60,272 bases of DNA from Candidatus Micrarchaeota archaeon (GCA_028867435.1 JAGWGI010000005.1:1-60272); one strand, 5' to 3'. Positions 4,007 through 23,586 are shown, counted from the stretch's first letter. Numbers and translations are program-made. Notes: generated by a model not told the origin, from the letters alone.

Positions 4007-4112
4007 TTACCATCTTTATGCAGCTAGGGGTATTTTAATCTATCCTACAGGTTTGTACTCTTAACGGCGTTAGTTCTTTATACCCCTAAAGACCATTCAT
4101 CTAGGTGCCCCA

Positions 4113-4622
4113 TTGGACGAGGAAAGGTACATCTCATACATAGAGAGTTTTTTGATACCAAAGGAGAAGGTGGAGCTGATAGTGAAGCAGACTAGGTGGT
4201 GGCCTGCCGTCCCGTTCAACTCAATCTTCAAGCCCATAATAACCTTCATAACCAATGAGCGCGTGCTGATACTGAGCAGGCATGATCTTGGTTTAAAGCG
4301 CAATGTCACTATAATACCCCTTGCCCACGTGCGGGCCATCAGGCTTCAGAAGGGGCTTATTCTCTGTTCTGTTGTCATAGGCTACATGGCTGAGATAATG
4401 GAGGAAAAGCCAGGCAGCCTCGACGGCCTTACGTACTCTAGCGCAAAGGCGTTCGTCGAGCACATGAGCATCAAGCTCTCTGAAGAGGCTGAATCTGTGA
4501 GATCCAGGAGAAAGCCGATCTTCAAGGAGGAGGAAGGGAAGAAGTGCGAGACCTGTGGTGAGATAAACGATCCGGCATACGATTATTGCTACCATTGCGG
4601 GGCTAGACTATATAGCCACTAG
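4113..4622 (+). CDS. bacterial-PH-like domain protein with C-terminal zinc ribbon
   Basis: ITNERVLI...IPLAHVRAIRLQKGL is bPH-like; CETCG...CYHCG ribbon; TTG start. Confidence 0.65.
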   Translation: MDEERYISYIESFLIPKEKVELIVKQTRWWPAVPFNSIFKPIITFITNERVLILSRHDLGLKRNVTIIPLAHVRAIRLQKGLILCSVVIGYMAEIMEEKPGSLDGLTYSSAKAFVEHMSIKLSEEAESVRSRRKPIFKEEEGKKCETCGEINDPAYDYCYHCGARLYSH

Positions 4623-8540: not shown

Positions 8541-8552
8541 TCCAGGGTTTTT

Positions 8553-10397: not shown

Positions 10398-11948
10398 TCA
10401 GACATTCTGCCTTATGCTCTTTAGCTCCTTCTTTAGCATCGCCCTGTTGATTGCCTCGAGCATCGCCTGCACGCTTGTTATCACAATGTCATAGCCCTTG
10501 GACTTTGCAACAGCAGAGCTTCCGCCTCCGTCTTCCACTTCCACTGTGACCTCGCACATTGCCTCAGAGCCTCCGGAAACTGCCCCTATCCTGTAGTCCT
10601 TAATCTTAAAGGTGTTATCCCAGGCGCCAGTCACATTCTTTATCGCCTTGAGGGCTGCATCCACTGGCCCTACACCGTCAGAGGTTCCAACGTAATCCTT
10701 GCCCCCGATATTTAGCTTCACGAAAGCGTACGGATTGTTGCCTATACCTGTGGTGACAGAGAATCCGGTGAGGTGTACCATGCGCTCAAACTGCCTAAGC
10801 GACATAACCTTCCCTGCTATCTCAAGAAGCTCCACTTCTGTGACTCGGCCCCCGGCATCCCCTATCGTCTTCACCTGATCTAGTATTAGTTTGGCCTGTT
10901 CCCTGTCTGGGGCTATTCCGTATTCTCCGAGCATCGCACTTACCCCATGCGCGCCAGCATGCTTGCCTGCATAGTACGTCCTGCTCCTACCCACATCCTC
11001 AGGCTTTATCGGCTCGTATGTAAGCGGATTGCTCAGAACCCCGTGAGTGTGTATCCCAGACTCGTGGGCAAAGGCGTTGTCCCCAACTATCGCCTTGTTG
11101 GGCTGGGGCCGTATCCCCACAAGGTTCGATACAAAAATAGAGGTCTCATAAATGCGGTTTAGCGCTATGCTGGTCTCATACTTTTCATTGAAGTTGAGAT
11201 ACGCAAGCGAGGCCGCAAGTTCCTCGAGCGATGTGTTTCCCGCACGCTCGCCTATTCCATTGATTGTTACATGAACCGACTGTGCGCCGGCTTCAAGCGC
11301 AGCGACAGAGTTGGCAACAGCCCATCCGAAGTCGTTGTGGCAGTGTATGCTTACGGGAAGACTGGTAATCCCAACTACATCCTTTGTTATGCTACTTATC
11401 TCTTGCGGCGAGGCTGTGCCCACGGTGTCTGGTATGTTCACCCTATCTGCGCCCACCTCTGCCACAGCCTTGTAAACCTGCCTAAGGAACTCCCTGTCGC
11501 TTCTTGTTGCATCCTCTGCCGAGAACTCAACATCAAGTCCAAGCGATTTGGCATAGCTTACCGCCTCCACCGCCTTTTCCAGAACCTGTTCACGCGTCAT
11601 CTTAAGCTTGAACTTTAGGTGAAGGTCAGAAGTCGCAATGAAAGTGTGAACGCTTCCTACCCCGACCTTTACGCACGCGTCTATGTCAGATTTTTCCGCC
11701 CTTGCAAGGCCGTAGATTTGCGCTGCAAGCCCTGCCTTGGCAATTAGCCCTACACCCTTCTTTTCCCCCTCTGATATTGCGGGAAAGCCTGCCTCTATTG
11801 CATTGACCCCCAGCCTGTTTAGCATCTGCGCTATCTGCAGCTTCTGCTCTGGGCGAAGCGCCACTCCAGGCGTCTGCTCACCGTCTCGCAGTGTGGTGTC
11901 AAAGATCCTGATTTTTCTAGCTTTCACGCTAATCCCTCCAAAATTCAC
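10398..11948 (-). CDS. leuA: 2-isopropylmalate synthase / citramalate synthase family
   Basis: FDTTLRDGEQTPG, FSAEDATR, PDTVG, HCHNDFG, GIGERAGN, HESGIH, GVGPVDAA regulatory domain. Confidence 0.88.
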   Translation of the reverse strand: MNFGGISVKARKIRIFDTTLRDGEQTPGVALRPEQKLQIAQMLNRLGVNAIEAGFPAISEGEKKGVGLIAKAGLAAQIYGLARAEKSDIDACVKVGVGSVHTFIATSDLHLKFKLKMTREQVLEKAVEAVSYAKSLGLDVEFSAEDATRSDREFLRQVYKAVAEVGADRVNIPDTVGTASPQEISSITKDVVGITSLPVSIHCHNDFGWAVANSVAALEAGAQSVHVTINGIGERAGNTSLEELAASLAYLNFNEKYETSIALNRIYETSIFVSNLVGIRPQPNKAIVGDNAFAHESGIHTHGVLSNPLTYEPIKPEDVGRSRTYYAGKHAGAHGVSAMLGEYGIAPDREQAKLILDQVKTIGDAGGRVTEVELLEIAGKVMSLRQFERMVHLTGFSVTTGIGNNPYAFVKLNIGGKDYVGTSDGVGPVDAALKAIKNVTGAWDNTFKIKDYRIGAVSGGSEAMCEVTVEVEDGGGSSAVAKSKGYDIVITSVQAMLEAINRAMLKKELKSIRQNV

Positions 11949-12000
11949 TCCCGATTAAACTTCTTATAGCTTCTCTACCAATTCACAGCTGGGTTGCCTA

Positions 12001-12927
12001 ATGGTTCCACTAATCCCAATACTCTACCTTATCTCCTTTAGCCTTCTGGTTTACAGGATAGCCAATATAACCTCGAAGAAGGAGGCTGCGATCCTTGCCG
12101 CATTCATAGTATTCGGTGCAGCTCTCGCCCTCTACCAGAGCACAAACGCGCTGCTCTTTGTCTCTATAGTCATCCTTTTCGATCTGATAACCGCAAAATA
12201 CGGCTCAAGGGAGGGCCTGTTCTTTGTTGTGCTCGGCTTTGCCTACTTCATAGTTTCGCTCTATAGCGGCATTGCAGTCTACCTAATAGCACAGGCGATG
12301 CTCCTAGGTCTTGCGCCTGATGCGATACTAAAGGGGCTCAAGGCGCATAAGGTATCTAGCAAGAAGACCGAGACAAGCAGGGACATAGTGCAGATAGCGT
12401 TCGGCATCCTAGTAATTGCTATGTTCCATTTCCTGCGCCCTGAGCTCTCCGAGTCAGTAATGATAACCCTGATACTTCTGGGCTACCTTGCAGTTAACTA
12501 TGGGATAGTTAGAAAGGAGACGAATCTGGCCAAGAGGCTCTACGCCCTCGAGCGCGAATATACCAGCCTTGGGGAGGGCGCTACATGGCTTGCTCTTGGA
12601 AGCCTTGCGGCAATAGGGTTTGTCTTCCACGTAAAGTACATGATGATAATCTTCTCCGCGATCTTCATTGCTGATGCCCTCGCCACTATAATAGGAATAA
12701 GGGCGAAGGGGATGAAGCTACCCTACAACAAAAAGAAGAGCGCCGCAGGGACAATAGCCTACTTTGCGGTAGTAGCGATAATCCCATATCTCCTCTACGG
12801 GGTCATCGCCCTTCCTGTTGCGATAATAGCCGCCTTCGTTGAGAGTCTCCCCTTAAAGCTTGACGACAACCTGAGCGTGCCAGTGGTGCTCGTGGTGCTG
12901 CACTTCCTGCTCAGGTTCCTCCAATAG
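12001..12927 (+). CDS. dolichol/phytol kinase-like membrane protein
   Basis: RDIVQI, ADALATIIG, LPYNKKKSAAGT, ESLPLKLDDNLSVP. Confidence 0.8.
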   Translation: MVPLIPILYLISFSLLVYRIANITSKKEAAILAAFIVFGAALALYQSTNALLFVSIVILFDLITAKYGSREGLFFVVLGFAYFIVSLYSGIAVYLIAQAMLLGLAPDAILKGLKAHKVSSKKTETSRDIVQIAFGILVIAMFHFLRPELSESVMITLILLGYLAVNYGIVRKETNLAKRLYALEREYTSLGEGATWLALGSLAAIGFVFHVKYMMIIFSAIFIADALATIIGIRAKGMKLPYNKKKSAAGTIAYFAVVAIIPYLLYGVIALPVAIIAAFVESLPLKLDDNLSVPVVLVVLHFLLRFLQ

Positions 12928-12945
12928 CGCGCTGCTCCTAAAAAG

Positions 12946-14166
12946 TTAATTTGTGTACCTTGTTGGCTGCAACATTGACAGTACATACGAATCGTCTTCG
13001 TTGCTAGCGAACAACACCGTTCTAAAACCGGCCTTAGATAGCAACTTTGTGAATGCCCATTCCGTGAACTTCTTTGACCGCGCAAGCAGTATGCGCTCTC
13101 CTTTTTCAAGGGATACCCTTCCAGATCCTATTTTGATTTCCATGTTCTTTTTGAGAACCATGCACATCTCAACTTGATATAATCTTTCGTTCCAAGAAAC
13201 ATCATAAACCGTGTCTGCTCTCCCGATCCCTATCCTAGCGGCCGTTAGGTAAACCAAGTCTGAAACATCTTTATTATTGTAGTGTGCGACTATCCTGGCT
13301 GTTCTTGCGACATTGGTTAATTCATTCGCCACTATCAAAAAGTCTTTTGACGACATCGATTCTTTGAAGTTTGTAAGTACACGATTCCTATCCGACTGGT
13401 TTCCCAGAGTATTTCCGAGGAAAAGAAGCAAATTTATCTCCCCCTCACCAGTTAAATCGTAAATCCGATCAGAAAAGTTGCCGTGCTCAAAGTCAAATTC
13501 TATCTTGTTGACTTTCAATCCCCCAATTTTTGACCTAACCCTCTCCCCAGCCAAATCGAGCATCGCCCTACTAACGTCAAGGGGGACATAAGCAAAGCCG
13601 AATCCTTTTCGTTTCAGCTCCTCCATTATCATTATTGCCGGTGCACCATTTCCACAGCCTATATCAACCACATTTATCCTACTGTCCTTAGGGAGGACAT
13701 TTATGAATTGGGTTATCCTAGAAATTATGAGCTTACGTTGTATTATGCTTATGTCCCCTTTTGACCCCACTCTATCCCAATTTGTTGCTCCCTCGGCAAG
13801 GTAAGCAAATTTAAGTGGTATCTCCCCCATGGTCCCCAAGGAAGTAAGCAGTTCAGCCTCCTGCCTTCTATTCAAAAAGCCAGAAGCTACACTGTTGCCA
13901 GATATATAATGTAAAGGTTTTATCTCAGGCTGAGCAATTAGCGGTAAAGATTCAGATATGTCTGCAAGTGCGATGCGTTTCTGGCCAAATACGAGATACA
14001 TCTTGATGTATCCCCTCTTGAGTAGCCACTTAATATGCGGAGTAAGTAATTGTCGAGATACATTCAACTCTTTGGCTATCCTGCTCTGGTAGGCATCGGC
14101 GGCACCAAGTTTCTTTATCATCTCCAATATCCTGAGCTTTATGCCGTCCAGTTTTGCAACTCGCAT
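12946..14166 (-). CDS. wHTH fused to an EgtD-like (Methyltransf_33) SAM-binding domain
   Basis: YQSRIAKELNVSRQLLTPHIKWLLKRGYI HTH; IPLKFAY, VDIGCGNG, YVPLDVS, LFLGNTLGN, QVEM, GERILLARSKKF. Confidence 0.8.
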   Translation of the reverse strand: MRVAKLDGIKLRILEMIKKLGAADAYQSRIAKELNVSRQLLTPHIKWLLKRGYIKMYLVFGQKRIALADISESLPLIAQPEIKPLHYISGNSVASGFLNRRQEAELLTSLGTMGEIPLKFAYLAEGATNWDRVGSKGDISIIQRKLIISRITQFINVLPKDSRINVVDIGCGNGAPAIMIMEELKRKGFGFAYVPLDVSRAMLDLAGERVRSKIGGLKVNKIEFDFEHGNFSDRIYDLTGEGEINLLLFLGNTLGNQSDRNRVLTNFKESMSSKDFLIVANELTNVARTARIVAHYNNKDVSDLVYLTAARIGIGRADTVYDVSWNERLYQVEMCMVLKKNMEIKIGSGRVSLEKGERILLARSKKFTEWAFTKLLSKAGFRTVLFASNEDDSYVLSMLQPTRYTN

Positions 14167-14182
14167 ATGTAAATGATATAAT

Positions 14183-14208
14183 GTAAAGATTATAAGTTTA
14201 ACCTTTAC
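14183..14208. promoter_or_regulatory. inverted repeat GTAAAG-N14-CTTTAC bracketing the TATA box of the HTH-methyltransferase gene
   Basis: TTATAA inside the repeat, ~25 nt upstream of ATG 14166; candidate autoregulatory site. Confidence 0.4.
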
Positions 14209-14354
14209 GCCATTTAAATGAAAACCTAATACACAACATTGATTTATTTCTATAAAAAGAAGTATATTTAAGTCTTTTGCTCTAAAAATAGAAAAGCTTA
14301 AATATGATTAATTTCATACCTTATATCAAAGTAAAATTCTGATGTGGGCAAACG

Positions 14355-14957
14355 ATGGCCATACAAAATAATTCATTTAGGAAAAGGTTTCGTGAAACCC
14401 AACGCGAATTACTAGACGATAGGAAAATCGCACTATTTCACTTTGTGCGCACAAGCGGGCTTAGTGCAAGCGATTTGTACACTCTTGCTAACCAAGCACA
14501 CTGCGACTTAAAGCGTGGGGTGGAGGCCCTAATAGTGAGCCTAGCGGATACGACCAATTCCAAAAGCAAGAAAGACAAAATTTTCATAAAAGAAAGGATA
14601 TCCTTGCAGATGAAGGAATTTGCAGATCTGGTGCCGGGCAGCTACGACAAACAGAATAGTAATAAAGAGTTGCCTGATAGCTGGATGGGGCTTGGCTCTT
14701 CTAGCTGGAGCACTCCCAGTCAAGTTTTCCATTGGGGTTATGACGATTATGGTTACGTTACATGCGCTGGTATTTTGCTAAATCGCAACTACGAGCTTGC
14801 CCATTTTCTAGTAAAATCAGCATCTGCATGGATTGAGATTAAAAACAAGCCTTCAGAAGTCGAGGATTTCCTAAAAGAACAGGGGAAAGATTACACGAAG
14901 CTAAAGCAAAGGGTCTTGGCAGGCAAGGGATGGCTTAGCAAAAATTTGCGTGAATAA
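14355..14957 (+). CDS. hypothetical protein
   Basis: 200 aa ORF, first gene of the divergent plus-strand run; no recognised motif. Confidence 0.65.
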   Translation: MAIQNNSFRKRFRETQRELLDDRKIALFHFVRTSGLSASDLYTLANQAHCDLKRGVEALIVSLADTTNSKSKKDKIFIKERISLQMKEFADLVPGSYDKQNSNKELPDSWMGLGSSSWSTPSQVFHWGYDDYGYVTCAGILLNRNYELAHFLVKSASAWIEIKNKPSEVEDFLKEQGKDYTKLKQRVLAGKGWLSKNLRE

Positions 14958-14983
14958 TCCTGAATTATAGAATGGTGAACTAA

Positions 14984-15751
14984 ATGGGACAAAGAATAAA
15001 GAACTTTATCGAATGTATGAAGAAAACGCCATCCGAACAGCAAAAAAACGGAGGCCAGATTAAAGGGGTCATATTTGACGTTGGCAATACCCTACTCAAA
15101 GTATCAAACTACGATGTAGATAGCTGGATAATCGGGCTAGCGAAAAAAAGGCATGCTAGAATCTTGGGATCCCGCTACGCCGATGTTGGCTACACTGATG
15201 ATGGACTAAAAAACGATTTCGAGGTTGAGCTCAAAAGGATAAACAACTTAATGATCCCTTCTCTGGAGAGGGGTAAGCTGTCAGTGCCTCAATTCGAATT
15301 AGAAATCGCAAGAATTCTTTCTGGGGGTGCGGCCGATCAGAATGTGGACTGGGCTGCATTCTTTAGTGGCACTTTAGAAAGGAACGAAGAGGTTATCAAC
15401 ATTGCTGCAAACCTCCACAAAAAAGGAATAAAGACTGCATATCTATCTAATCTCGATGCTGTGCAAAATGAGATCGTCTATGAAATGGTAGGTGGTTCTG
15501 CCAACTTCAACTTCCAAATACCATCTTACAAGCTGGGCTTCAGAAAGCAAGAGCCAGAAGCATATATCGAGAGCGCAGATTTGATGGGTTTCGCAGCCTA
15601 CACTGAAGCCATAAAAGGAGTATTGTTAATAGACGATTCACCAAAATACATAGAACTAGCTAAGAGCGTAGGCATGCAGACAATCACCTTCAATGGCAAC
15701 GTCGAAGAACTTCGCAAAAACCTAGACCTCAAGCTTGCCGTGCACGTGTAA
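14984..15751 (+). CDS. HAD-superfamily phosphatase
   Basis: VIFDVGNTL, YLSN, GFRKQEPEAY, LIDDSPKYIELAKSVGM. Confidence 0.88.
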   Translation: MGQRIKNFIECMKKTPSEQQKNGGQIKGVIFDVGNTLLKVSNYDVDSWIIGLAKKRHARILGSRYADVGYTDDGLKNDFEVELKRINNLMIPSLERGKLSVPQFELEIARILSGGAADQNVDWAAFFSGTLERNEEVINIAANLHKKGIKTAYLSNLDAVQNEIVYEMVGGSANFNFQIPSYKLGFRKQEPEAYIESADLMGFAAYTEAIKGVLLIDDSPKYIELAKSVGMQTITFNGNVEELRKNLDLKLAVHV

Positions 15752-15770
15752 TATTGATGCGGGTTGTACC

Positions 15771-17156
15771 ATGGAATGGTATAGAATTGGGGCTAGGCAG
15801 TATGGCGTACAATTCAGCGAGCACTGTATCAGCTGCTGCACGCCAAAGTACAAATCAATCATTCTATCGCCTTTCTACAGGCAGATATTCCTGCCCTCTG
15901 ACAAGAACGAGGTATTATATATAGAGAAAAACGACTGGGATAGTTTTTCTAGCTCTCTAAAGCAAAAATATCTGGATAATCCCCAAAATTATCCCGACTT
16001 GGAAGGGCAGTTCATGGTGTACACCCGGGTGTATCTGGCAAGCGCAAAGAGAATACACGATACGGATTTGTCCGGTATAAACGGTACCGAGATCAAAAAA
16101 CTGTTCATGGAAAATTACGAGCACGAAACAAGATACATTGCTTTTGACTGGGTTTTCTGGGAGCTAAATAATATATTTGCAAACAACACAAAAGAGATAA
16201 TTCACAACAGGTTCGGAAGCGACTCACAAAAGTTATATGCCTTTTATGATGCACTGCTGAACCCCACAAACAAAACATCCATACACCAAATGAGAGAATT
16301 GGCGCCTAAATGGCATAAGTTTACCGAAGAAAAGAAACTAGCAGCCTATCATGATTTTCTATGGGTTCCCTGCATAGACATACACATGAAGGAATGGTCA
16401 AGGGAAGATTTTTCTAGGCATATATCGAACCTCAAAAACGAAGGGAAAATTAAGATGCCATATGAAGACGCAATTGAGGCGTTGAAGCTAAACGGCGAAG
16501 AAAGAATACTAGTAGACATAGCCAAGAAGCTCACGTATATCAAAGACTTCAAAGACGACTCCAAAAGGATGTGCATTTACCTAGAAAAAAACATATACCA
16601 CGAGATATCAAAGCGGATGGGAATAACTCTTGAGGAATCCTCCTACCTGAGACGGGCTGAGATAATAAAGTTCCTTGATACTGGTAAGAAAGTTCCTATG
16701 AAACTCATCAGGCAGAGAATGGAGGGCTTTGTCAGCTATTACAATGAAAAAAGGAAGTTGGTATGTGGTGTCGGAGATGAAATCAAGGATGTGACAAGAA
16801 AGTTCGGCATTCAACCCTATGAAAGGGCATCTGCCCGAATACGCGGCATAATTGCTTCGCAAGGCTTTGCAAAAGGTACCGCAGTAATAATCAAGACTAT
16901 CGATGATCTACAGAAGGTAAAAGAAGGAGATGTGCTCATAACCTTCATGACGCATCCTGACTACGTTCCTGCGATGCAAAAGGCTAGTGCAATCGTCACT
17001 GATGAGGGAGGCATAACCTGCCATGCGGCAATAGTCTCAAGGGAATTTGGCCTTCCCTGCATTGTAGGTGCGGAAAGCGCCACCCAAACCTTCAAGGATG
17101 GGGACGTTATTGAGGTGAACGCAAATGAGGGGTACGTCACGAAAATCGACAGTTAA
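15771..17156 (+). CDS. PEP-utilising enzyme mobile (phospho-His swivel) domain protein without ATP-grasp domain
   Basis: C-terminal GIIASQG...MTHPDYVPAMQKASAIVTDEGGITCHAAIVSREFGLPCIVG; ~350 aa largely helical N-terminus. Confidence 0.85.
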   Translation: MEWYRIGARQYGVQFSEHCISCCTPKYKSIILSPFYRQIFLPSDKNEVLYIEKNDWDSFSSSLKQKYLDNPQNYPDLEGQFMVYTRVYLASAKRIHDTDLSGINGTEIKKLFMENYEHETRYIAFDWVFWELNNIFANNTKEIIHNRFGSDSQKLYAFYDALLNPTNKTSIHQMRELAPKWHKFTEEKKLAAYHDFLWVPCIDIHMKEWSREDFSRHISNLKNEGKIKMPYEDAIEALKLNGEERILVDIAKKLTYIKDFKDDSKRMCIYLEKNIYHEISKRMGITLEESSYLRRAEIIKFLDTGKKVPMKLIRQRMEGFVSYYNEKRKLVCGVGDEIKDVTRKFGIQPYERASARIRGIIASQGFAKGTAVIIKTIDDLQKVKEGDVLITFMTHPDYVPAMQKASAIVTDEGGITCHAAIVSREFGLPCIVGAESATQTFKDGDVIEVNANEGYVTKIDS

Positions 17157-17164
17157 TAAATTTA

Positions 17165-18196
17165 GTGTTCCAATCTAATTGCAATCAAAAGAGGGAAAGC
17201 GTGGTCGCTAAGACAAGGGGGCAGAGGATCTATTCCCTAGAAGAGCAAAAGGACATGCTCTATAACCTGCAGAAATACAACTACATGCCCCTAAAATACA
17301 GCTATTTTGACTACGGGGCGCAGAGATGGATCAGATTCGCGCAGCGATGGCTCAGGATACTAAAGCAGGATCCCGGTGCGAGGGGCATACATGTGTTCGA
17401 GAGGGTCCTACTCACCGAGATGATTAAGAGCATCTTCAATTCACTGCCATCCCATCTATATAAGAATTTCAACCTGATTGACCTCGGTTGCGGTGACGGG
17501 TCGCCGATGTACCCGATACTTCGCTACCTACAATTGACCATGCCAAAGGCAAAAATCAGGTACAACCCCATTGACCTCAGCCCTGATTTGTTAAGCGCTG
17601 CGTCAAAAAACATCTCCAGGGACTTCAAGGTGTTCGGCAAGCCGAGCAGATGGGATCTTGAAAGCGGTTCCTTCTCCCACATAACAAAGGGACTCAACGC
17701 TCCCAATTTCGGTAACCTGTACCTGTTCCTCGGGGCCACCTTTGGCAACATGTACAACCAAATCCAGATGCTATCGGACGTCAAGAGATCAATGCTGCCT
17801 TGTGACTACCTCTTATTGGCTGTGGAGTTGGTAGTGGAAAAGGAGATAGGAACGATGGTCAGGGAATATTATGACATCAGGGAAATCTATGACCTGACCT
17901 TCAGCGCCCTTGAATCTTTCGGCCTCAAGCGCTCGGCAGGAGAGTTCAAGATAATCTTCAACAGGAAGGCGAGCCAGATTGAGTGCTACTATGTACCAGA
18001 CAAGGAAATGAATCTGGTCACGCTAGAAGGCAAAACCGTGCTGCCCAAACGAGAGCCTGTGCTGCTTGCAATCAGCACCAAATACACAGTTCCGATGATA
18101 ACTGAGATAATAGAGAAGGCAGGATTTCGAATCTGCCTGCTCACCACCTCTATTGGAAATAATTATGCGATGGCAATGCTACAGCCAATGAAATGA
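17165..18196 (+). CDS. EgtD-like SAM-dependent methyltransferase
   Basis: MPLKYSY, IDLGCGDG, YNPIDLS, LFLGATFGN, QIEC, EPVLLAISTKY; start may be GTG 17201. Confidence 0.8.
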   Translation: MFQSNCNQKRESVVAKTRGQRIYSLEEQKDMLYNLQKYNYMPLKYSYFDYGAQRWIRFAQRWLRILKQDPGARGIHVFERVLLTEMIKSIFNSLPSHLYKNFNLIDLGCGDGSPMYPILRYLQLTMPKAKIRYNPIDLSPDLLSAASKNISRDFKVFGKPSRWDLESGSFSHITKGLNAPNFGNLYLFLGATFGNMYNQIQMLSDVKRSMLPCDYLLLAVELVVEKEIGTMVREYYDIREIYDLTFSALESFGLKRSAGEFKIIFNRKASQIECYYVPDKEMNLVTLEGKTVLPKREPVLLAISTKYTVPMITEIIEKAGFRICLLTTSIGNNYAMAMLQPMK

Positions 18197-18203
18197 AAAA
18201 GGC

Positions 18204-18716
18204 TTAGACCCTTCTTCCTCTCCTTCCCCCTGGCCTCTTTGTCGTGTCCGTCGGAATCGGAGTGACATCCTCTATGCTACCTATCCTAAATCCGCTTCTT
18301 GCAAGGGCCCTGACCACTGCCTGCGCGCCAGATCCGGGCGTCTTGGTCCTGTGCCCGCCCGGGGCCCTGATCTTTATGTTAATGTGAGTCACTCCCTTCT
18401 CGATCGCCTTTGTGGCCACCTTGTATGAAGCCTGCATCGCCGCATAAGGCATTCCCTCCTCGTGATCGTTGTCAACGACCATCCCTCCGCTTCCTACTGC
18501 GATTGTCTCCGCTCCCGATAGGTCTGTTAGCGTAATTATAGTGTCGTTCTTGGATGCGTAGATGTGTGCAACTCCCCACCTTATACCCTTGGGCTTGAAC
18601 TTCTGCGCTGCAGCCTGAACCTCGCTCTCAAGGGAAAGCTCGCTCTTCTTTGTAGTCTTTGCCTTCTGCTGCTCGTTGCTCTTCTGCGGCGTCTTATCCG
18701 TTTTTCCCTTTGGCAT
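18204..18716 (-). CDS. rps11: 30S ribosomal protein S11 (N-terminally extended)
   Basis: [47 protein letters not shown]. Confidence 0.97.
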
Positions 18717-18720
18717 AATA

Positions 18721-19281
18721 TCACTTTTGTTCTGCTACCTGCTCCACTGGCTTTGCCTCAGATGTCTGAGGTGCTTGCTGGGCCGCTGTAGGAGGCGGAG
18801 CAGTGTCAAGTTTTATCGGCTTGTAATATCCTATTCCGTTCTCTTCGGTCTGCATAACCATGTATCCTGGCGATGTTATCCTCTTGCCCCCAACTGAGAT
18901 GAAGCCGTGGGTTATGAGTTGCCTGGCCTGCTTTATGCTCTTTGCCAGCCCCTTGTTGAAGACCATGGTCTGTAGTCTCCTGTTGAGCAGTGCGTCTATG
19001 TTAATTATCAGCAAATCGTCGAGCACAGCGCTCGGGCTCACCACATTGTACTTTGCAAGCCTTGCGACCATCTGCTTGCCGACTTCCTCTTCCGCCTTTC
19101 CGGAAAGCACCTCCCGAATATTCCTCCTTATCCTTCTCAGCTCGCTTGCCGCCATCCATACTTCCTTGAGATTTCTTAAGCCGAATCTTTCCTGTATCTT
19201 GTGCTCCTCGTCTATCCTCTGCTTCTCCCACATGAAGCCTGGCCGTTCATAGGTCTTTCTAAGTCTTTTCGGAGCTCCCAA
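18721..19281 (-). CDS. rps4: 30S ribosomal protein S4
   Basis: TTG start 19281 gives [14 protein letters not shown]; [28 protein letters not shown]. Confidence 0.96.
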
Positions 19282-19285
19282 TAAA

Positions 19286-19810
19286 TCACTTCTTCTTTTC
19301 CTCTGCCGGCTTTGCGCCCGCAGTTGCAGGTGCAACGCTCTTCTTCATGACTCCGATAGTCTCGCCGGTCCTGCCAGTCGACCTTGTGCGCTGACCTCTC
19401 ACCTTCTGCCTGTACTGGTGCCTAAAGCCCCTCCAGGACTGGGACCTTATCTCAGCTTCAATGTCCTGCCTTGTCCTGACTATCAAGTCACTCCCTACAA
19501 GGTGCATGCTCTGGTTAGTATCTGTGTCTCTTTGTCTGTTGAGCAGAAATGTCGGTATGCCAAACTTAGCAGGCTCCTTTATCACGGATTCGAGCTCCTC
19601 AACCTGCTTGTCGTCAAGCGAGCCTATTTGCGTGCTGGTCTTTATGTCGAACTTCCTCTCTGCAATCAGCGCGATTCCTCGCGCCATGTTAAGCCCTATT
19701 CCCTTTACCTGATTGAGCGCCTTTGCTATTGGAAAGCTGCCGTTGATGTCTCTCCCGGCTATTCTGACTATGCTCTCTTCCTTCTTGCTTGGACCTCTTT
19801 GCTCAGCCAT
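19286..19810 (-). CDS. rps13: 30S ribosomal protein S13
   Basis: IVRIAGRDI, KGIG, SWRGFRH...KVRGQRTRSTGR. Confidence 0.97.
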   Translation of the reverse strand: MAEQRGPSKKEESIVRIAGRDINGSFPIAKALNQVKGIGLNMARGIALIAERKFDIKTSTQIGSLDDKQVEELESVIKEPAKFGIPTFLLNRQRDTDTNQSMHLVGSDLIVRTRQDIEAEIRSQSWRGFRHQYRQKVRGQRTRSTGRTGETIGVMKKSVAPATAGAKPAEEKKK

Positions 19811-19834
19811 CTAAAACACTTTCAATACTTGGTA

Positions 19835-19950
19835 CGCCAGGGTTGGGATATTCAGCATAATGCATTTGAACCCAAAAGGCCTTGCGGCCATACGCTCACA
19901 GGAAAATAAATTTTCCAGGCGTACGCGATACCGGATTCCGCCACCCTGGC
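19835..19950 (-). tRNA. tRNA-Ser(GGA) with two 16-nt introns (37/38 at 19897-19912; 59/60 at 19849-19864)
   Basis: Acceptor GCCAGGG/CCCTGGC, anticodon arm TACGC-CTGGAAA-GCGTA after splicing, long variable arm GGCCGCAAGGCC; T-loop intron forms a textbook BHB (GGG/CCC, TTCA/TGAA, GCAT/ATGC). Confidence 0.92.
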
Positions 19951-20119
19951 ATGCTATACATATGATTAACTAATATTAAAAAGCTAACCGATTTAACAAC
20001 TATACATTGACACAATAGGTATTTAAACGTTAATTGTTCCAGTGCAGGATTTCTTTATAAACGAACATCCAATGAGGCTTATAAACCCCAAATCCAATTC
20101 GATTAGGACGGTGATCCGC

Positions 20120-21127
20120 TTGAAAATTGGAAACGATTTCTCAGAGCTTGAGCGACATGACAATCCAGTTTGTCCAGAGTGCAAGAAAGGCAGGCTCGTT
20201 GACGATCCTGACAGCGGCGAAATACACTGCAGGTCCTGTGGCTTTGTATCAAAGGAAAAGACTCAGGTTGTAGATGTCTCAATTTCTAAAGACCTTTTCA
20301 GAAGCACCCCCAAAACTGGCACATCAAAAGATAACCCGGTATTAATAGATCCGATAAATAAGGATTTCTATGGCCGAAGCATATCGCCAGCAATGGTCGA
20401 AAGTATGAACAGGCTCAGAACCTGGGACTTAAGAAGCCACGCAAAGCCGGGAAGGGATAGGAATCTCAGTAAGGCATTGCCCAAAATATTTACTTGGTCT
20501 AGAAGCCTGAGTATCGGTGATAACGCTGCCAATAACGCGGCTAGTATATATCAAAAAGCCATAGCCTTCAAGCTTACAAGAGGCAGGTCTATGGAGGAAA
20601 TGGCAGCCGGGGCGGTTCTCAGCTCATGCAAGATAAATGGAATACCGCGCAGCGATAAGCAAATCGCTCAGATTGCAGGGCTAAAACTTAAGGGCGTCAG
20701 GAGGGCGTACAGGCTGATATTTATGTCGCTTGGCCTTTCTGCAGATGTTGCAGACCCTAAAGTTTTCGTACCCCCAATTGCCAGTAAGATAAATCTTGAG
20801 CCACGGGTTATCAGGCTTGCCGGCAAAATACTTGACGAAGTATCCACAGCGGACATAAGGATTGGAAAGAACCCGATGGCCCAAGCCTCAGCCGCACTTT
20901 ATCTTTCATGCGTAAAATTCAAGGTCGATGTGACGCAGAACTCTATCTCCTCGGCTTCAGACATCTCAGGGGTTACGATTAGGAGAACATCACATCTAAT
21001 CAATGAAATCCTAAAGCAGCCCATACCAATTTCAGTTGGGCCGAAAAAGGCAAACTCTCTGCCAGGAAGCGGGGTTAAGGGTGCGATAAGAGACAGGCAA
21101 CATCCAAACGCCACAAAAATCCACTGA
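20120..21127 (+). CDS. tfb: divergent transcription initiation factor TFB paralogue
   Basis: CPEC...GEIHCRSCGFV zinc ribbon, RLRTWD, RNL, RGRS, GKNP, TQ..VTIR; TTG start after GGTGAT (GTG 20111 also possible). Confidence 0.88.
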   Translation: MKIGNDFSELERHDNPVCPECKKGRLVDDPDSGEIHCRSCGFVSKEKTQVVDVSISKDLFRSTPKTGTSKDNPVLIDPINKDFYGRSISPAMVESMNRLRTWDLRSHAKPGRDRNLSKALPKIFTWSRSLSIGDNAANNAASIYQKAIAFKLTRGRSMEEMAAGAVLSSCKINGIPRSDKQIAQIAGLKLKGVRRAYRLIFMSLGLSADVADPKVFVPPIASKINLEPRVIRLAGKILDEVSTADIRIGKNPMAQASAALYLSCVKFKVDVTQNSISSASDISGVTIRRTSHLINEILKQPIPISVGPKKANSLPGSGVKGAIRDRQHPNATKIH

Positions 21128-21215
21128 TCTCACACTTCCGTACACATTCATGAAGGTTTGAGTACAAAAACCAACTAAGGCTTATAAATAGCAAAACAGA
21201 TTGGTATCTAATTAC

Positions 21216-22085
21216 ATGCCTATGAATTGGGGGATACAAGATGCGCTCCCTGGCAGGAGGAAAGATGACGAATGCCCTGAGTGCAAAGGCACGCTCATAG
21301 AGGACAAGGATCACGGAGAGCGAGTGTGCGTAGGTTGCGGCTACGTTTCGAGCCAGCTAATTGCAGATCCGGATCTAAAAGAAAGAACCCTCCCGGTGTC
21401 CTACAGCAACGCATCAACCATAGGCCCATCCAATGCCGATTATTCCGGTAAGCGGATAAGCGGCGTAGTCAGAAACAGAATTGAGAACATGCGCCTTGAG
21501 GATTGGAGGAGCAAGAAATCAGGGACAGCAAGAAAACTCGATGAAGCACTTCCAAACCTTATAAAATGGACCGGGCTTCTTGGCATGCCAGATGTCGCAG
21601 TCACGCATACTTTTACAATATTGACCAAGGCCATTAGGAACGGAGTGACAAAATGGAAGAATGAGGATGCCATGATTGCGGCATGCATTTACAAAGCGTG
21701 CAAACACCACAATCTTCCCATCAACGTAAGGATGCTCTCGGTCACAACCGGCGTCACAAAAAAGAGCATAAACCGTGCGATTTCACAGCTCATGAGGGCA
21801 CTAGAGCTAAACTCCGTAATAATAGATCCCACCTCCATCCTTCCAAAATACGCAAACAATGTGGGTCTGTCAGAAAAGGCGAAACGGGAGGCCATGAGAA
21901 TGCTAAAGCACATAGAAGGCAAGATCGAGTCCATGGGCAAACCGCCCTCAACTCTGGCAGCCTGTGCAGTATACGCCTCGGCTCTCAGGAACAAGGAGAA
22001 CGTCTCTCAAGCGGCACTAGAAAAAATTTCGCACGTTACCAGCGTTACAATACGAAAAAACTACAGAACGTTCCTTAAAACCTAG
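21216..22085 (+). CDS. tfb: second divergent TFB paralogue
   Basis: CPEC...GERVCVGCGYV, AACIYKAC, GLSEKAKREA, GKPPSTLAACAVY, VTSVTIRKNY. Confidence 0.85.
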   Translation: MPMNWGIQDALPGRRKDDECPECKGTLIEDKDHGERVCVGCGYVSSQLIADPDLKERTLPVSYSNASTIGPSNADYSGKRISGVVRNRIENMRLEDWRSKKSGTARKLDEALPNLIKWTGLLGMPDVAVTHTFTILTKAIRNGVTKWKNEDAMIAACIYKACKHHNLPINVRMLSVTTGVTKKSINRAISQLMRALELNSVIIDPTSILPKYANNVGLSEKAKREAMRMLKHIEGKIESMGKPPSTLAACAVYASALRNKENVSQAALEKISHVTSVTIRKNYRTFLKT

Positions 22086-23549: not shown

Positions 23550-23586
23550 CAGAACACTTATCGCAAAACTGTTATAAAAACCGATG

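What the first reader, a model, noticed from the sequence alone, without database searches (positions are those of the whole stretch)
12946..18196. Uncharacterised five-gene island: two EgtD-like methyltransferases bracketing a HAD phosphatase and an orphan phospho-His protein
Seen: a visibly AT-richer block between housekeeping genes: wHTH-EgtD-like <- | hypothetical -> HAD -> PEP-utiliser swivel protein -> EgtD-like. The two methyltransferase domains are paralogous (PLK[FY]xY, DxGCGxG, YxPxDxS, LFLGxTxGN, SxK[FY]). Established: EgtD trimethylates histidine and uses a Glu in its TEISxKF motif; here that position reads LARSKKF and LAISTKY, and no egtB/C is present. Inference: a self-regulated small-molecule modification system (methylate, phosphorylate, dephosphorylate) for biosynthesis, detoxification or host interaction, on an unknown substrate.
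Basis: partly seen in the sequence, partly recalled or inferred. Interest (0 to 1): 0.75.

Follow-up and report, generated by a model that had tools for sequence, protein, structure and literature searches.

The report
Two methyltransferases flanking a kinase insert
In a tiny symbiotic archaeon, two old copies of an amino-acid-methylating enzyme are separated by a strain-specific insert carrying a phosphatase and half of a split kinase; the genes are real, but I did not find them together anywhere else.

Summary
The five ORFs exist as described, and identical contigs from two other studies bridge every junction. They are not a conserved five-gene system.

O1 and O5 are old paralogues (29% identity). 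They fall in two separate, well-supported clades of an EgtD-fold (Methyltransf_33) family that runs in this Micrarchaeota lineage. A congener has S13-S4-S11 | clade-A methyltransferase | membrane protein | LeuA, the same order as here but without the genes in between. The insert is the wHTH extension on O1, an ORFan (O2), a divergent HAD phosphatase (O3) and O4.

O4 is not an orphan phospho-His protein. It matches rifampin phosphotransferase residues 328-867 (Z 20.8), that is, the acceptor-binding and swivel domains. It therefore looks like HpeH, CreH or PpsA, the acceptor subunits of split small-molecule dikinases. The only ATP-grasp domain found in the genome sits in a 1339-aa two-module fusion on another contig.

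None of 16 methyltransferase loci or 67 O4-family loci repeats the combination. The methyltransferases keep EgtD's alpha-amine ligand and two of its three carboxylate ligands. They have Ala at the Glu282 position. The genome has no EgtB-type or rhodanese domain, so ergothioneine synthesis is excluded.

A locally coupled pathway remains possible because the genes are tightly spaced, but it is unsupported elsewhere. Interest is low to moderate.

The parts
12946..13881 (-). O1, catalytic part: clade-A Micrarchaeal EgtD-fold (Methyltransf_33) SAM-dependent N-methyltransferase domain, residues about 96-406
   Evidence: PF10017 E 8.4e-30. It is 50% identical to the 318-aa orthologue that sits directly downstream of S11 in congener G006, and 45% identical to the G005 orthologue. 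Clade A has support 100/99. SAM motif DIGCGNG. The equivalents of EgtD Asn166, Gly161, Thr163, Ser284 and Tyr39 are kept, and Glu282 is Ala.
13882..14166 (-). O1, N-terminal winged-helix DNA-binding extension (residues 1-95), fused in frame to the methyltransferase
   Evidence: HTH_24 E 2.9e-5, 24.0 bits against a cut-off of 21.9. MarR scores 22.3 bits, below its 24.6 cut-off. The orthologues in G006 and G005 (318 and 322 aa) lack this extension. No clear homologue in 60 relatives, only one marginal hit at E 0.0078. pI 10.1.
14167..14354 (.). 188-bp divergent intergenic region between O1 and O2, probably holding both promoters
   Evidence: GC 0.234. Sequence read. It contains an imperfect 27-nt inverted repeat at 14251-14277 / 14292-14318, 74% complementary. 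I did not test whether this repeat is above chance.
14355..14957 (+). O2: 200-aa ORFan, basic (pI 9.2), function unknown
   Evidence: No Pfam, NCBIfam or meaningful PADLOC match. It found only itself in the 5.8-billion-protein search, and there as a 115-aa gene call. The ESM Atlas model has pLDDT 0.39 and no look-alike scores 0.9 or more. No profile similarity to the ATP-grasp or acceptor-domain alignments.
14984..15751 (+). O3: divergent HAD-superfamily phosphatase (family IA-like)
   Evidence: PF00702 28.5 bits against a cut-off of 26.4. Weak NCBIfam hits: TIGR02247 at 7e-6 and the glucose-1-phosphatase model NF006991 at 1.3e-4. The best solved relative is the N-terminal phosphatase domain of soluble epoxide hydrolase, E 0.013. 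The motifs can be read in the sequence: I FDVGNT (nucleophile Asp present, Gly at the +2 position), II LSN, III RKQEPE, IV IDDS. No orthologue in 400 genomes of the phylum; the best hit is 34% identical over residues 83-238.
15771..17156 (+). O4: acceptor-binding (rifampin-binding-like) domain plus phosphohistidine swivel domain of a split RPH-type small-molecule dikinase (HpeH/CreH/PpsA-like). It has no ATP-grasp domain. An alternative TTG start lies at 15735.
   Evidence: Swivel domain, PF00391 E 2.4e-25. AlphaFold2 model pLDDT 93.9. Foldseek top hits are RPH-Lm 5fbu, 5hv1 and 5fbt at E 4e-14 to 1e-13. VIA-align gives Z 20.8, rmsd 4.4 A and 400 aligned residues, with model 1-460 on 5hv1 residues 328-867. 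193 representative relatives at E<=1e-3; 7 of the 15 scanned are PPDK_N + this domain + swivel. Start inferred from the 82%-identical P0001.
17022..17024 (+). Codon of the predicted phospho-carrier histidine of O4 (His418 of the 461-aa form) in GGITCHAAIVSRE
   Evidence: Invariant in all 42 sequences of alignment A1. The motif matches the consensus GGXT[S/C]HAA[I/V][I/V][A/S]R quoted for PEP synthase, RPH and HpeH (PMC12167813, Discussion).
17165..18196 (+). O5: clade-B Micrarchaeal EgtD-fold (Methyltransf_33) N-methyltransferase with native base composition
   Evidence: PF10017 E 3.5e-21. Orthologues at 41-57% identity in 9 genomes of the order and at 67% in the protein database. It nests inside clade B (100/100), next to relatives of its own genus and family. 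GC 0.480, GC3 0.641.
18204..18716 (-). Synteny anchor: ribosomal protein S11, last gene of the S13-S4-S11 cluster. In relatives a Methyltransf_33 gene follows it directly.
   Evidence: PF00411 E 9.7e-39. 91% identical to S11 of G006, where the clade-A methyltransferase starts 3 nt after it. In G311 a clade-B gene follows S11. In G001 a 403+-aa ORF ending in Methyltransf_33 follows it.
10398..12927 (.). Synteny anchors on the other side: LeuA-type 2-isopropylmalate/homocitrate synthase (10398-11948, -) and a polytopic membrane protein (12001-12927, +)
   Evidence: Pfam HMGL-like, HCS_D2 and LeuA_dimer. 63% (LeuA) and 54% (membrane protein) identical to the genes in the same order and orientation next to the methyltransferase in G006.

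Best explanation
The stretch is a mosaic, not a dedicated five-gene system.

**The two methyltransferases.** O1 and O5 are anciently diverged, vertically inherited paralogues (clades A and B) of an EgtD-fold amino-acid N-methyltransferase family typical of this Micrarchaeota lineage. Relatives keep one to three such genes at housekeeping loci, often directly after the S13-S4-S11 ribosomal genes, which is exactly this position.

**The insert.** Between them lies strain-specific DNA: a winged-helix extension fused onto O1, a 23%-GC divergent spacer, an ORFan (O2), a divergent HAD phosphatase (O3) and O4.

**O4.** It is the acceptor-binding plus phosphohistidine-swivel subunit of a split rifampin-phosphotransferase-type dikinase.

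**Inferred mechanism.**
- An ATP-grasp domain charges His418 of O4 from ATP. The only one found in the genome is the C-terminal domain of a 1339-aa protein on contig C19 that already carries two such modules.
- The swivel domain then delivers the phosphate to a hydroxyl of an unknown small molecule held in the helical rifampin-binding-like domain.
- O3 hydrolyses a phosphomonoester.
- O1 and O5 methylate the alpha-amino group of an amino acid, or a similar amine, that is not histidine.
- O1 may also bind DNA at the spacer.

**Shown:** gene content, folds, conserved residues, phylogeny, synteny and the lack of co-occurrence.

**Inferred:** charging of O4 in trans, all substrates, any coupling between the genes, and any regulation.
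For: **Vertical inheritance of the methyltransferases**
- G006 (same genus) has S13, S4, S11, a clade-A methyltransferase, the membrane protein and LeuA in the same order and orientations. Identities to the window are 73, 75, 91, 50, 54 and 63%.
- The tree of 28 sequences gives clades A (100/99), B (100/100) and C (100/100). O5 sits among B-type genes of its own genus and family.
- Clade-A genes are 7-10 GC points below their flanks in 3 of 4 relatives. The low GC of O1 is therefore a property of the gene family, not a sign of import.
- O5 has native GC.

**Strain-specific insert**
- The O4 acceptor domain matches 1 of 117 other genomes of the family, at 25% identity. No relative among 60 has a full-length match.
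- O3 has no orthologue in 400 genomes of the phylum.
- O2 finds only itself.
- The wHTH extension has no clear homologue in 60 relatives.

**No co-occurrence**
- 0 of 11 methyltransferase loci have O2, O3 or O4 homologues, and 0 of 4 congener methyltransferase loci.
- None of the 40 neighbours scanned in those 11 loci is a HAD, swivel or ATP-grasp protein.
- 0 of 67 O4-family loci have O1/O5, O2 or O3 hits.

**Identity of O4**
- Two-component homologues HpeHI, CreHI and PpsAB, with the same domain split, have been characterised (PMC12167813, abstract and Discussion).

**ATP-grasp partner**
- There is one PPDK_N match in the genome, on C19.
- O4 residues 219-473 are 33-36% identical to both C19 modules.
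- The genome has no PEP-utilizers_C domain, so none of its swivel domains belongs to a PEP synthase, PPDK or enzyme I.

**Assembly** is verified by independent contigs.
Against: - O2-O5 are co-oriented, with gaps of only 26, 19 and 8 nt (with the 15771 start). This arrangement usually means co-transcription, so a local functional link among O3, O4 and O5 cannot be dismissed.
- The HpeHI paper states that the phosphorylated compounds are later dephosphorylated.
- Phosphatase-type genes lie near O4-family arrays in 5 of the 14 loci scanned. HAD genes are in L076, L077 and L080, and His_Phos_1 or HD genes in L080 and L122. The O3-O4 pair may therefore be a real unit.
- An HTH_17-methyltransferase fusion in G394 lies next to a gene whose product begins with a DxDGT-type HAD motif. 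I read the motif in the sequence and did not scan it.
- Trans-charging by the C19 ATP-grasp is untested.
- The genome is 93.7% complete, so another ATP-grasp gene could be missing.
- The only close O4 relative (82% identity) lies on a 3,688-nt contig whose neighbours I could not read.
Confidence: 0.65

Rival explanations
1. First reader's model. O2-O5, together with O1, form one self-regulated pathway that phosphorylates, N-methylates and dephosphorylates a single small molecule. Phosphorylation would be transient, serving as activation or protection. The wHTH-methyltransferase O1 would sense the product and control the divergent promoter.
For: - Tight co-oriented spacing, and a divergent arrangement around a 23%-GC spacer.
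- All catalytic motifs are intact in O1, O3, O4 and O5.
- The Hpe pathway gives a precedent for phosphorylate, modify, dephosphorylate.
- Phosphatase genes lie near O4-family arrays in 5 of 14 loci.
- DNA-binding domains are fused to Methyltransf_33 independently in this phylum: HTH_24 here and HTH_17 in G394.
Against: - The combination occurs in none of the 16 methyltransferase loci or 67 O4-family loci examined.
- O5 and the O1 catalytic domain are older residents of the locus than O2-O4. O5 also differs in composition from O2-O4.
- The block holds no ATP-binding subunit.
- No O5 homologue of 188 aa or more was recorded on the contig of the only close O4 relative.
Confidence: 0.2
2. The methyltransferases make hercynine (histidine betaine) for ergothioneine, as the public annotation 'L-histidine N(alpha)-methyltransferase' on a relative implies.
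For: - Pfam Methyltransf_33 and weak TIGR03438 hits.
- A 46%-identical relative carries that name in NCBI.
- The residues for the alpha-amine, and two of the three carboxylate ligands, are kept.
Against: - Scores of 79.4 and 55.9 bits against the 290.9-bit equivalog cut-off.
- Ala replaces Glu282, and this position varies across the family (A, L, D, G, F, M, V, Y).
- The Tyr56 region is not conserved, and the Phe47 position is an invariant Trp.
- The genome has no FGE-sulfatase (EgtB) domain and no rhodanese (EanB-type) domain.
Confidence: 0.03
3. The Micrarchaeal Methyltransf_33 proteins are N-terminal methyltransferases of proteins, for example ribosomal proteins. This would explain their recurrent position right after the S13-S4-S11 genes. 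On this reading the insert is unrelated cargo.
For: - A Methyltransf_33 gene directly follows S11 in G000, G001, G006 and G311.
- Other copies sit near fibrillarin, AlaRS, or the cytidylate-kinase and L34e genes.
- Side-chain pocket residues are poorly conserved.
Against: - Ser284 is invariant, and a Tyr at or next to the Tyr206 position is nearly invariant. In EgtD these residues bind the free alpha-carboxylate (PMC8593015 passages). That fits a free amino acid better than a peptide.
- In genomes of 0.6-1.1 Mb almost every gene has housekeeping neighbours.
- No member of this family is known to me to act on proteins (recalled, not searched).
Confidence: 0.07
4. O2-O4 are non-functional leftovers of a decayed insertion. 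O4 would be stranded without its ATP-grasp partner.
For: - No ATP-grasp gene in the block.
- O2 is an ORFan with a low-confidence fold.
- The genome also holds a stand-alone swivel fragment beside a transposase-like ORF on C18.
Against: - O4 keeps every invariant residue of its family, including His418, and its model has pLDDT 93.9.
- O3 keeps HAD motifs I-IV.
- There are no frameshifts or internal stops.
- The block is identical in samples from two studies.
- HpeH alone can transfer phosphate between substrates without its ATP-grasp partner (PMC12167813 abstract).
Confidence: 0.05

Closest known systems
HpeH / CreH / PpsA: acceptor subunits of two-component RPH-like small-molecule dikinases (HpeHI of Rhodococcus, CreHI of Corynebacterium, phenylphosphate synthase PpsAB of Thauera), and single-chain rifampin phosphotransferase RPH-Lm (PDB 5hv1, 5fbt, 5fbu)
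   Same: O4 has the same two domains in the same order, a rifampin-binding-like helical domain followed by a His swivel domain with GGxTCHAAIVSRE near the C terminus. As in HpeH, it lacks the ATP-grasp domain. The model aligns to RPH-Lm residues 328-867 at Z 20.8. Fused relatives have PPDK_N in front, which gives the RPH order.
   Different: Sequence identity to RPH is only 16-19%. No ATP-grasp gene is adjacent. The only candidate partner is the C-terminal domain of a protein that already carries two acceptor modules, on another contig. The host is a 1-Mb symbiotic archaeon, not an aromatic-degrading bacterium. The substrate is unknown. The family forms long tandem arrays in DPANN archaea and CPR bacteria.
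EgtD, L-histidine N-alpha-trimethyltransferase (Mycolicibacterium smegmatis 4pim, M. tuberculosis 7scf; Pfam PF10017, NCBIfam TIGR03438)
   Same: Same family. The profile of 28 Micrarchaeal sequences hits EgtD at E 8.6e-27 over nearly the full length. The SAM motif is kept, as are the equivalents of Tyr39, Gly161, Thr163, Asn166 and Ser284, and a Tyr at or next to the Tyr206 position.
   Different: Glu282 is Ala here and variable across the family. Phe47 is an invariant Trp. The Tyr56 segment is not conserved. Scores fall far below the equivalog cut-off. The genome has no EgtB- or EanB-type partner. There are three paralogous clades per lineage. O1 carries an N-terminal wHTH.
HAD-IA phosphatases such as the N-terminal phosphatase domain of soluble epoxide hydrolase (5mwa, 1cqz) and the TIGR02247 and glucose-1-phosphatase (NF006991) models
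   Same: O3 matches the core Rossmannoid region and motifs II-IV. The nucleophile Asp of motif I is present.
   Different: All matches are weak (E 0.013 in the PDB search; NCBIfam scores far below cut-offs). Position +2 of motif I is Gly instead of the usual Asp. From memory, not checked here, E. coli YihX has a similar motif. O3 has about 25 extra N-terminal residues and no orthologue in 400 genomes of the phylum.
DNA-binding domain fused to an EgtD-like methyltransferase, noted earlier in this scan for CPR bacteria and other lineages (e1-3043353, e1-5109273)
   Same: O1 joins a small N-terminal helix-turn-helix domain to a complete Methyltransf_33 domain and faces a small gene across an AT-rich spacer. 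G394 of the same class has an HTH_17-Methyltransf_33 fusion.
   Different: The HTH types differ (HTH_24/MarR-like here). The O1 extension has no clear homologue in 60 relatives. O2 is basic, not acidic. The earlier notes are unchecked AI reports, and I did not compare their sequences.

Membership tests
EgtD (L-histidine N-alpha-methyltransferase, TIGR03438 equivalog) | Methyltransf_33 fold and sequence family | tested here: met
   PF10017 at E 8.4e-30 (O1) and 3.5e-21 (O5), both above the 23-bit cut-off. Family profile against solved EgtD, E 8.6e-27.
EgtD (L-histidine N-alpha-methyltransferase, TIGR03438 equivalog) | Score above the curated equivalog cut-off (290.9 bits) | tested here: not met
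   79.4 bits (O1) and 55.9 bits (O5).
EgtD (L-histidine N-alpha-methyltransferase, TIGR03438 equivalog) | Alpha-amine site (Asn166, Gly161, Thr163) and carboxylate ligands Ser284 and Tyr206 | tested here: met
   FLGNTLGN / FLGATFGN align to FLGSTIGN, and S of SKKF / STKY aligns to Ser284. The Asn and Ser are invariant in 28 sequences. The Tyr206 equivalent is ambiguous by one residue. Residue roles are taken from PMC8593015 passages.
EgtD (L-histidine N-alpha-methyltransferase, TIGR03438 equivalog) | Imidazole-pocket residue Glu282 and third carboxylate ligand Tyr56 | tested here: not met
   The Glu282 position is Ala in O1 and O5 and variable in the family. The Tyr56 segment is not conserved.
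EgtD (L-histidine N-alpha-methyltransferase, TIGR03438 equivalog) | A sulfur-inserting partner in the genome (EgtB with an FGE-sulfatase domain, or the rhodanese-type EanB) | tested here: not met
   No PF03781 and no PF00581 match in the 93.7%-complete genome. Absence from an incomplete genome is not proof.
Two-component RPH-like small-molecule dikinase, acceptor subunit (HpeH/CreH/PpsA type) | C-terminal His swivel domain with the GGxT[S/C]HAA[I/V][I/V][A/S]R motif | tested here: met
   PF00391 E 2.4e-25. GGITCHAAIVSRE is present and the His is invariant in 42 sequences. The consensus is quoted in PMC12167813.
Two-component RPH-like small-molecule dikinase, acceptor subunit (HpeH/CreH/PpsA type) | Rifampin-binding-like acceptor domain in front of the swivel domain, with no ATP-grasp in the same chain | tested here: met
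   Model 1-460 aligns to 5hv1 residues 328-867 at Z 20.8 with 400 residues. The acceptor domain alone (model 1-321) aligns to 5hv3 residues 328-733 at Z 12.2. No PPDK_N hit in O4.
Two-component RPH-like small-molecule dikinase, acceptor subunit (HpeH/CreH/PpsA type) | A separate ATP-grasp subunit encoded beside it | tested here: not met
   The window block has no PPDK_N. The single PPDK_N of the genome is fused to two other modules on contig C19.
Two-component RPH-like small-molecule dikinase, acceptor subunit (HpeH/CreH/PpsA type) | ATP-dependent, His-dependent phosphorylation of a small-molecule hydroxyl | not testable with these tools
   Needs enzyme assays.
PEP synthase / pyruvate phosphate dikinase / PTS enzyme I | PEP/pyruvate-binding TIM-barrel domain (PEP-utilizers_C) | tested here: not met
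   No PF02896 match in O4 or anywhere in the genome.
HAD-superfamily phosphatase | Family HMM above cut-off and the four HAD motifs | tested here: met
   PF00702 28.5 bits against 26.4. Motifs I FDVGNT, II LSN, III RKQEPE and IV IDDS were read in the translation. Motifs II-IV align to the phosphatase domain of soluble epoxide hydrolase.
HAD-superfamily phosphatase | General acid/base Asp two residues after the nucleophile (DxD) | tested here: not met
   The motif reads D-V-G. Some active HAD phosphatases lack this Asp (recalled), so activity is not excluded.
MarR/wHTH transcription regulators | Winged helix-turn-helix domain | tested here: met
   HTH_24 at 24.0 bits against 21.9. The MarR model is below its cut-off at 22.3 against 24.6. 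DNA binding and an operator were not tested.
Horizontally acquired genomic island / mobile element | Integrase or transposase, a tRNA target, flanking direct repeats, and cargo that moves as a unit | tested here: not met
   No tRNA in 8000-24000. No repeat pair marks the block ends. All five ORFs are otherwise assigned. Two of the five genes are vertically inherited. O2-O4 and the wHTH extension do look like an insertion, on distribution and, for O2-O4, on GC; how the insertion happened is unknown.

The most novel reading that the evidence does not exclude
O2-O5 encode a phosphorylation-dependent route to a non-histidine amino-acid betaine, plausibly one bearing a phenol or another hydroxyl.
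- O4, charged in trans by the single ATP-grasp domain of the C19 multi-module protein, phosphorylates the side-chain hydroxyl.
- An EgtD-fold enzyme trimethylates the alpha-amine of the phospho-intermediate.
- The HAD enzyme removes the phosphate.
- The wHTH-methyltransferase O1 doubles as a ligand-sensing repressor of the divergent promoter.

This would be the first assigned acceptor for the many-module split dikinases of DPANN archaea and CPR bacteria, and a prokaryotic counterpart of phospho-dependent N-methylation. Phosphoethanolamine methyltransferase and the psilocybin pathway are analogies I recall; I did not test them.
Probability: 0.08. Interest if true: 0.7.

Novelty: new member of a known kind. 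Interest (0 to 1): 0.3.

Why it matters
**For annotation**
- The 'L-histidine N(alpha)-methyltransferase' label that a Micrarchaeal relative of these proteins carries in NCBI is very likely wrong.
- O4-type proteins should be called acceptor subunits of split RPH-like dikinases, not PEP synthases.

**For biology**
- The locus shows how a 1-Mb symbiont genome builds accessory loci by dropping new genes between old paralogues.
- It adds a Micrarchaeota case to the many-module dikinases of ultra-small archaea and bacteria. Here one acceptor module lies far from the only ATP-grasp domain found.
- It adds another independent fusion of a DNA-binding domain to an EgtD-fold enzyme.

**If the local operon is a real pathway,** it would offer the first handle on a substrate for that dikinase family. 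Nothing found here supports that beyond gene spacing.

Tried and rejected
- **PADLOC.** Only weak hits, to the HTH of O1 (CasR models, E 4e-5) and one marginal Cmr5 hit to O2 (E 0.009). I found no defence system.
- **O2.** No relatives in the 5.8-billion-protein search. No ESM Atlas look-alike scores 0.9 or more. No profile similarity to the ATP-grasp or acceptor-domain alignments. It is not a degraded ATP-grasp.
- **Close relatives of O4 and O3 in JGI metagenome contigs.** None found.
- **Complex prediction of O4 with the C19 ATP-grasp domain.** No verdict: median 0.32, and a control also scored 0.32. This is not evidence either way.
- **RNA evidence.** No RNA holder is listed among the 7 runs, so expression is untested.
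- **Variants lacking the block.** No contig in the four runs laid joins across it.
- **Island signatures.** No tRNA, no Rfam family and no repeat pair at the block ends.
- **Inverted repeat in the spacer.** It contains a 9-bp perfect core. By my own rough estimate about 0.6 such pairs are expected by chance in a 188-nt spacer of 77% AT, so I do not call it an operator.
- **19-nt direct repeat (13904-13922 and 14176-14194, 89% identical).** It lies just upstream of the O1 start and again at the wHTH/methyltransferase junction. It is suggestive of how the fusion arose, but a two-copy repeat of this length may be chance.
- **Low GC as proof of import of O1.** Rejected, because clade-A genes are AT-rich in relatives too.
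- **Literature on multi-module dikinase arrays in DPANN/CPR.** One full-text search listed nothing relevant among the 12 papers shown of 31. One search does not show that the arrays are undescribed.

Full report

Yes. The five ORFs lie at the stated coordinates.

Pfam gives:
- O1 (12946-14166, -): HTH_24 at residues 6-55 plus Methyltransf_33 at 115-400 (E 8.4e-30).
- O2: nothing.
- O3: HAD.
- O4: a PEP-utilizers swivel domain at residues 396-466 (E 2.4e-25).
- O5: Methyltransf_33 (E 3.5e-21).

O1 and O5 are 29% identical over 321 residues (E 8e-43), and all five quoted motifs are present.

The 1-kb GC profile dips to 0.39-0.43 between 13 and 17 kb, against about 0.45-0.53 elsewhere. Per gene, O1-O4 have GC 0.429-0.435. 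That is z -2.4 to -2.6 against 57 other ORFs of the window. O5 is ordinary (0.480; GC3 0.641).

The assembly is sound. In four runs from two studies, labelled mine drainage and soil metagenomes, contigs with no differences bridge O1/O2, O3-O4-O5 and O5/S11. No contig skips the block.

O4 most likely starts at the ATG at 15771. Its 82%-identical, 461-aa homologue P0001 begins there.

**2. The organism**

The window is contig C28 of a 1.05-Mb, 93.7%-complete archaeal genome. A 46%-identical O5 relative is named in NCBI as coming from a 'Candidatus Micrarchaeales archaeon'. Earlier notes of this scan on the same genome also say Micrarchaeota (these are unchecked AI notes).

**3. The two methyltransferases are resident lineage genes**

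*Distribution.*
- PF10017 occurs only twice in the genome, both times in this block.
- It occurs in 4 of 60 relatives: G001, G005 (three copies), G006 and G024.
- With O5 as query, 29 of 401 genomes of the phylum sample match, counting the window's own genome.

*Synteny.* In congener G006 the order is S13, S4, S11, a 318-aa methyltransferase starting 3 nt after S11, a membrane protein on the opposite strand, then LeuA. This is the same order and the same orientations as in the window. Identities are 73, 75, 91, 50, 54 and 63%. G006 has nothing between S11 and the methyltransferase, and its methyltransferase has no wHTH.

*Phylogeny.* A maximum-likelihood tree of 28 sequences resolves three clades:
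- Clade A: O1, G006, G005 and G222 (support 100/99).
- Clade B: 17 sequences including O5 (100/100). O5 is nearest to P0154, P0155, P0156, G005 of the same genus and G330 of the same family.
- Clade C: four divergent copies (100/100).

*Neighbours.*
- Several genomes carry two or three of these genes close together. G136 has A and B in tandem. G005, G113, G265 and G359 have B plus C.
- The neighbours are housekeeping genes: S11/S4/S13 in G311, and elsewhere fibrillarin, AlaRS with Exo5, and VTT-family membrane proteins.

*Composition.* Clade-A genes are 7-10 GC points below their flanks in 3 of 4 relatives. O1's low GC is therefore a trait of the gene family.

**4. What the methyltransferases probably do**

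A profile of the 28 sequences matches solved EgtD over nearly its full length (E 8.6e-27). Residue roles come from passages of PMC8593015:
- Tyr206, Ser284 and Tyr56 bind the carboxylate.
- Asn166 binds the alpha-amine.
- The imidazole contacts a water held by Thr213.
- Glu282 is named among the important residues.

Against that map:
- The family keeps the SAM motif, Tyr39, Gly161, Thr163, Asn166 (invariant) and Ser284 (invariant), and a nearly invariant Tyr at or next to position 206.
- The Glu282 position is Ala in O1 and O5 and varies across the family (A, L, D, G, F, M, V, Y).
- Phe47 is an invariant Trp.
- The Tyr56 segment is not conserved.

NCBIfam scores of 79 and 56 bits are far below the 290.9-bit EgtD cut-off. 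The genome has no FGE-sulfatase (EgtB) domain and no rhodanese (EanB-type) domain.

I conclude that these are alpha-N-methyltransferases for an amino acid or a similar amine other than histidine. The substrate cannot be named from sequence. From memory only, changes at Glu282 shift EgtD toward other aromatic amino acids (Vit et al. 2015, of which I saw only the reference entry).

**5. O4 is the acceptor half of a split RPH-type dikinase**

*Relatives.*
- Word-based searches found only P0001 and O4's own gene call.
- The exhaustive HMMER search with residues 1-365 found 193 representative clusters at E<=1e-3, of which 88 were at 1e-10 or better.
- Most are 450-480 aa, with the same two domains as O4.
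- Of the 15 I scanned, 7 are proteins of 746-804 aa with PPDK_N (ATP-grasp) + this domain + swivel. One has a NUDIX tail, and one has two swivel domains.

*Structure.*
- An AlphaFold2 model built from 42 sequences has pLDDT 93.9.
- Foldseek's six best hits are all rifampin phosphotransferase RPH-Lm entries (E 4e-14 to 3e-11).
- VIA-align places model residues 1-460 on 5hv1 residues 328-867 (Z 20.8, rmsd 4.4 A, 400 aligned residues). The acceptor domain alone (model 1-321) aligns to 5hv3 residues 328-733 at Z 12.2.

*Precedent.* This is the domain split described for HpeH in the two-component dikinase HpeHI. In that enzyme, HpeI is the ATP-grasp subunit, and HpeH carries the swivel and rifampin-binding-like domains. 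The catalytic His is required, and HpeH alone can pass phosphate between substrates. CreHI and PpsAB are homologues (PMC12167813, abstract and Discussion). O4 carries the consensus GGITCHAAIVSRE, and its His418 is invariant.

*The rest of the genome.*
- There is no PEP-utilizers_C domain at all, so no swivel domain here belongs to a PEP synthase, PPDK or enzyme I.
- There are four swivel domains: O4, a stand-alone fragment on C18, and two in one protein on C19.
- There is a single ATP-grasp domain. It is the C-terminal part of that 1339-aa C19 protein, whose layout is [acceptor + swivel] x 2 + ATP-grasp.
- O4 residues 219-473 are 33-36% identical to both C19 modules.

Trans-charging of O4 by that domain is my inference. 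The complex prediction returned no verdict and is set aside.

**6. The middle of the block is strain-specific**

- The O4 acceptor domain matches 1 of 117 other genomes of the family (G005, 25% identity). No relative among 60 has a full-length match.
- In G005 the related genes form a separate three-gene set elsewhere in the genome: a 385-aa acceptor domain, a 116-aa swivel and a 313-aa ATP-grasp.
- O3 finds only generic HAD hits in 90 of 401 genomes (89 of 400 other than the window's own). The best is 34% identical over residues 83-238.
- O2 finds only itself.
- The wHTH extension has one marginal hit in 60 relatives (E 0.0078).

These genome counts include two genomes flagged as unpublished, G003 and G050. 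No claim depends on them.

**7. The co-occurrence test**

- None of 11 methyltransferase loci from the order and class has a BLAST hit to O2, O3 or O4. None of the 40 neighbouring proteins I scanned in those loci is a HAD, swivel or ATP-grasp protein.
- The four methyltransferase loci of congeners G005, G006 and G001 also have no hit.
- Of 67 loci of O4 relatives in public genomes, none has a tblastn hit to O1/O5, O2 or O3 at E<=1e-4.
- No O5 homologue of 188 aa or more is recorded on the contig of P0001.

**8. What still argues for a local link**

- O2-O5 are co-oriented, with gaps of 26, 19 and 8 nt.
- The HpeHI paper states that the phosphorylated intermediates are later dephosphorylated.
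- Among 14 O4-family loci whose accessory genes I scanned, HAD genes occur in 3 (L076, L077, L080). Other phosphatase folds occur in L080 and L122 (His_Phos_1) and in L122 (HD). Earlier notes of this scan also report phosphatase partners (not independent evidence).
- DNA-binding fusions to this methyltransferase fold recur. G394 has HTH_17-Methyltransf_33. G001 has a 403+-aa ORF directly after S11 with an unassigned extension of about 290 aa. Three other genomes have radical-SAM fusions.

O1 may therefore really be both an enzyme and a regulator, and O3-O4 may be a working pair. I put the fully coupled pathway at about 0.2.

**9. Verdict**

The enzyme classes are correct, the methyltransferases do not serve ergothioneine synthesis, and a DNA-binding fusion exists.

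The parts are new members of known kinds:
- a Micrarchaeal branch of the EgtD family;
- an HpeH-like acceptor subunit of the many-module split dikinases already seen repeatedly in ultra-small archaea and bacteria;
- a divergent HAD phosphatase.

Interest is low to moderate. The most useful products are the corrected annotations and a testable trans-charging hypothesis.

Noticed in passing
L008:260-4279 (G000 contig C19, 4.9 kb): A 1339-aa protein laid out as [rifampin-binding-like acceptor domain + His swivel] x 2 followed by a C-terminal ATP-grasp (PPDK_N). Relative to RPH this is a permuted, two-module order. It holds the only ATP-grasp domain found in the genome. A 148-aa HTH-like gene follows it.
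   Followed up: partly
L009 about 4090-4420 (G000 contig C18): A stand-alone swivel-domain ORF with an intact GGITCHAAI motif and no acceptor domain. It lies next to a 111-aa transposase-like ORF.
   Followed up: no
L074, L075, L076 and other loci: O4-family genes form long tandem arrays in DPANN archaea and CPR bacteria. A Woesearchaeota contig (L074) has about ten consecutive ORFs of roughly 480 aa, L075 has eight, and L076:1668-12953 is a single 3761-aa ORF. Recurrent partners are a Hexapep protein of about 364 aa (4 loci), PTA_PTB (2), HAD (3), His_Phos_1 (2) and Pol-beta nucleotidyltransferases. PPDK_N is present in only 7 of the 32 loci that hold the acceptor domain. Earlier notes of this scan describe the same arrays.
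   Followed up: partly
L032:5901-8343 (G005): A congener encodes the dikinase as three overlapping genes: a 385-aa acceptor domain, a 116-aa swivel and a 313-aa ATP-grasp. This is a further degree of splitting.
   Followed up: no
L031:9045-10253 (G001); L050:1495-2637 (G394); L054, L055, L059: Other fusions of the EgtD fold occur in this phylum. G001 has an ORF directly after S11 with an unassigned N-terminal region of about 290 aa before Methyltransf_33; the ORF is cut by the contig end. G394 has an HTH_17-Methyltransf_33 protein lying tail to tail with a gene whose product begins with a DxDGT HAD-type motif. Three genomes have radical-SAM-Methyltransf_33 fusions of 621-641 aa.
   Followed up: partly
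window 13904-13922 and 14176-14194: A 19-nt direct repeat (17 of 19 identical). One copy lies just upstream of the O1 start codon. The other lies inside O1, at the junction between the wHTH extension and the methyltransferase domain. It may be a trace of how the fusion arose, or chance.
   Followed up: no
whole genome G000: No PEP-utilizers_C, no rhodanese and no FGE-sulfatase domain was found in the 93.7%-complete genome. It therefore appears to lack a canonical PEP synthase or PPDK.
   Followed up: partly
L030, L064, L071 (clade-A methyltransferase genes of G006, G136, G222): Clade-A methyltransferase genes are 7-10 GC points below the rest of their loci in three of four relatives. The reason for this persistent compositional oddity is unknown.
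   Followed up: no
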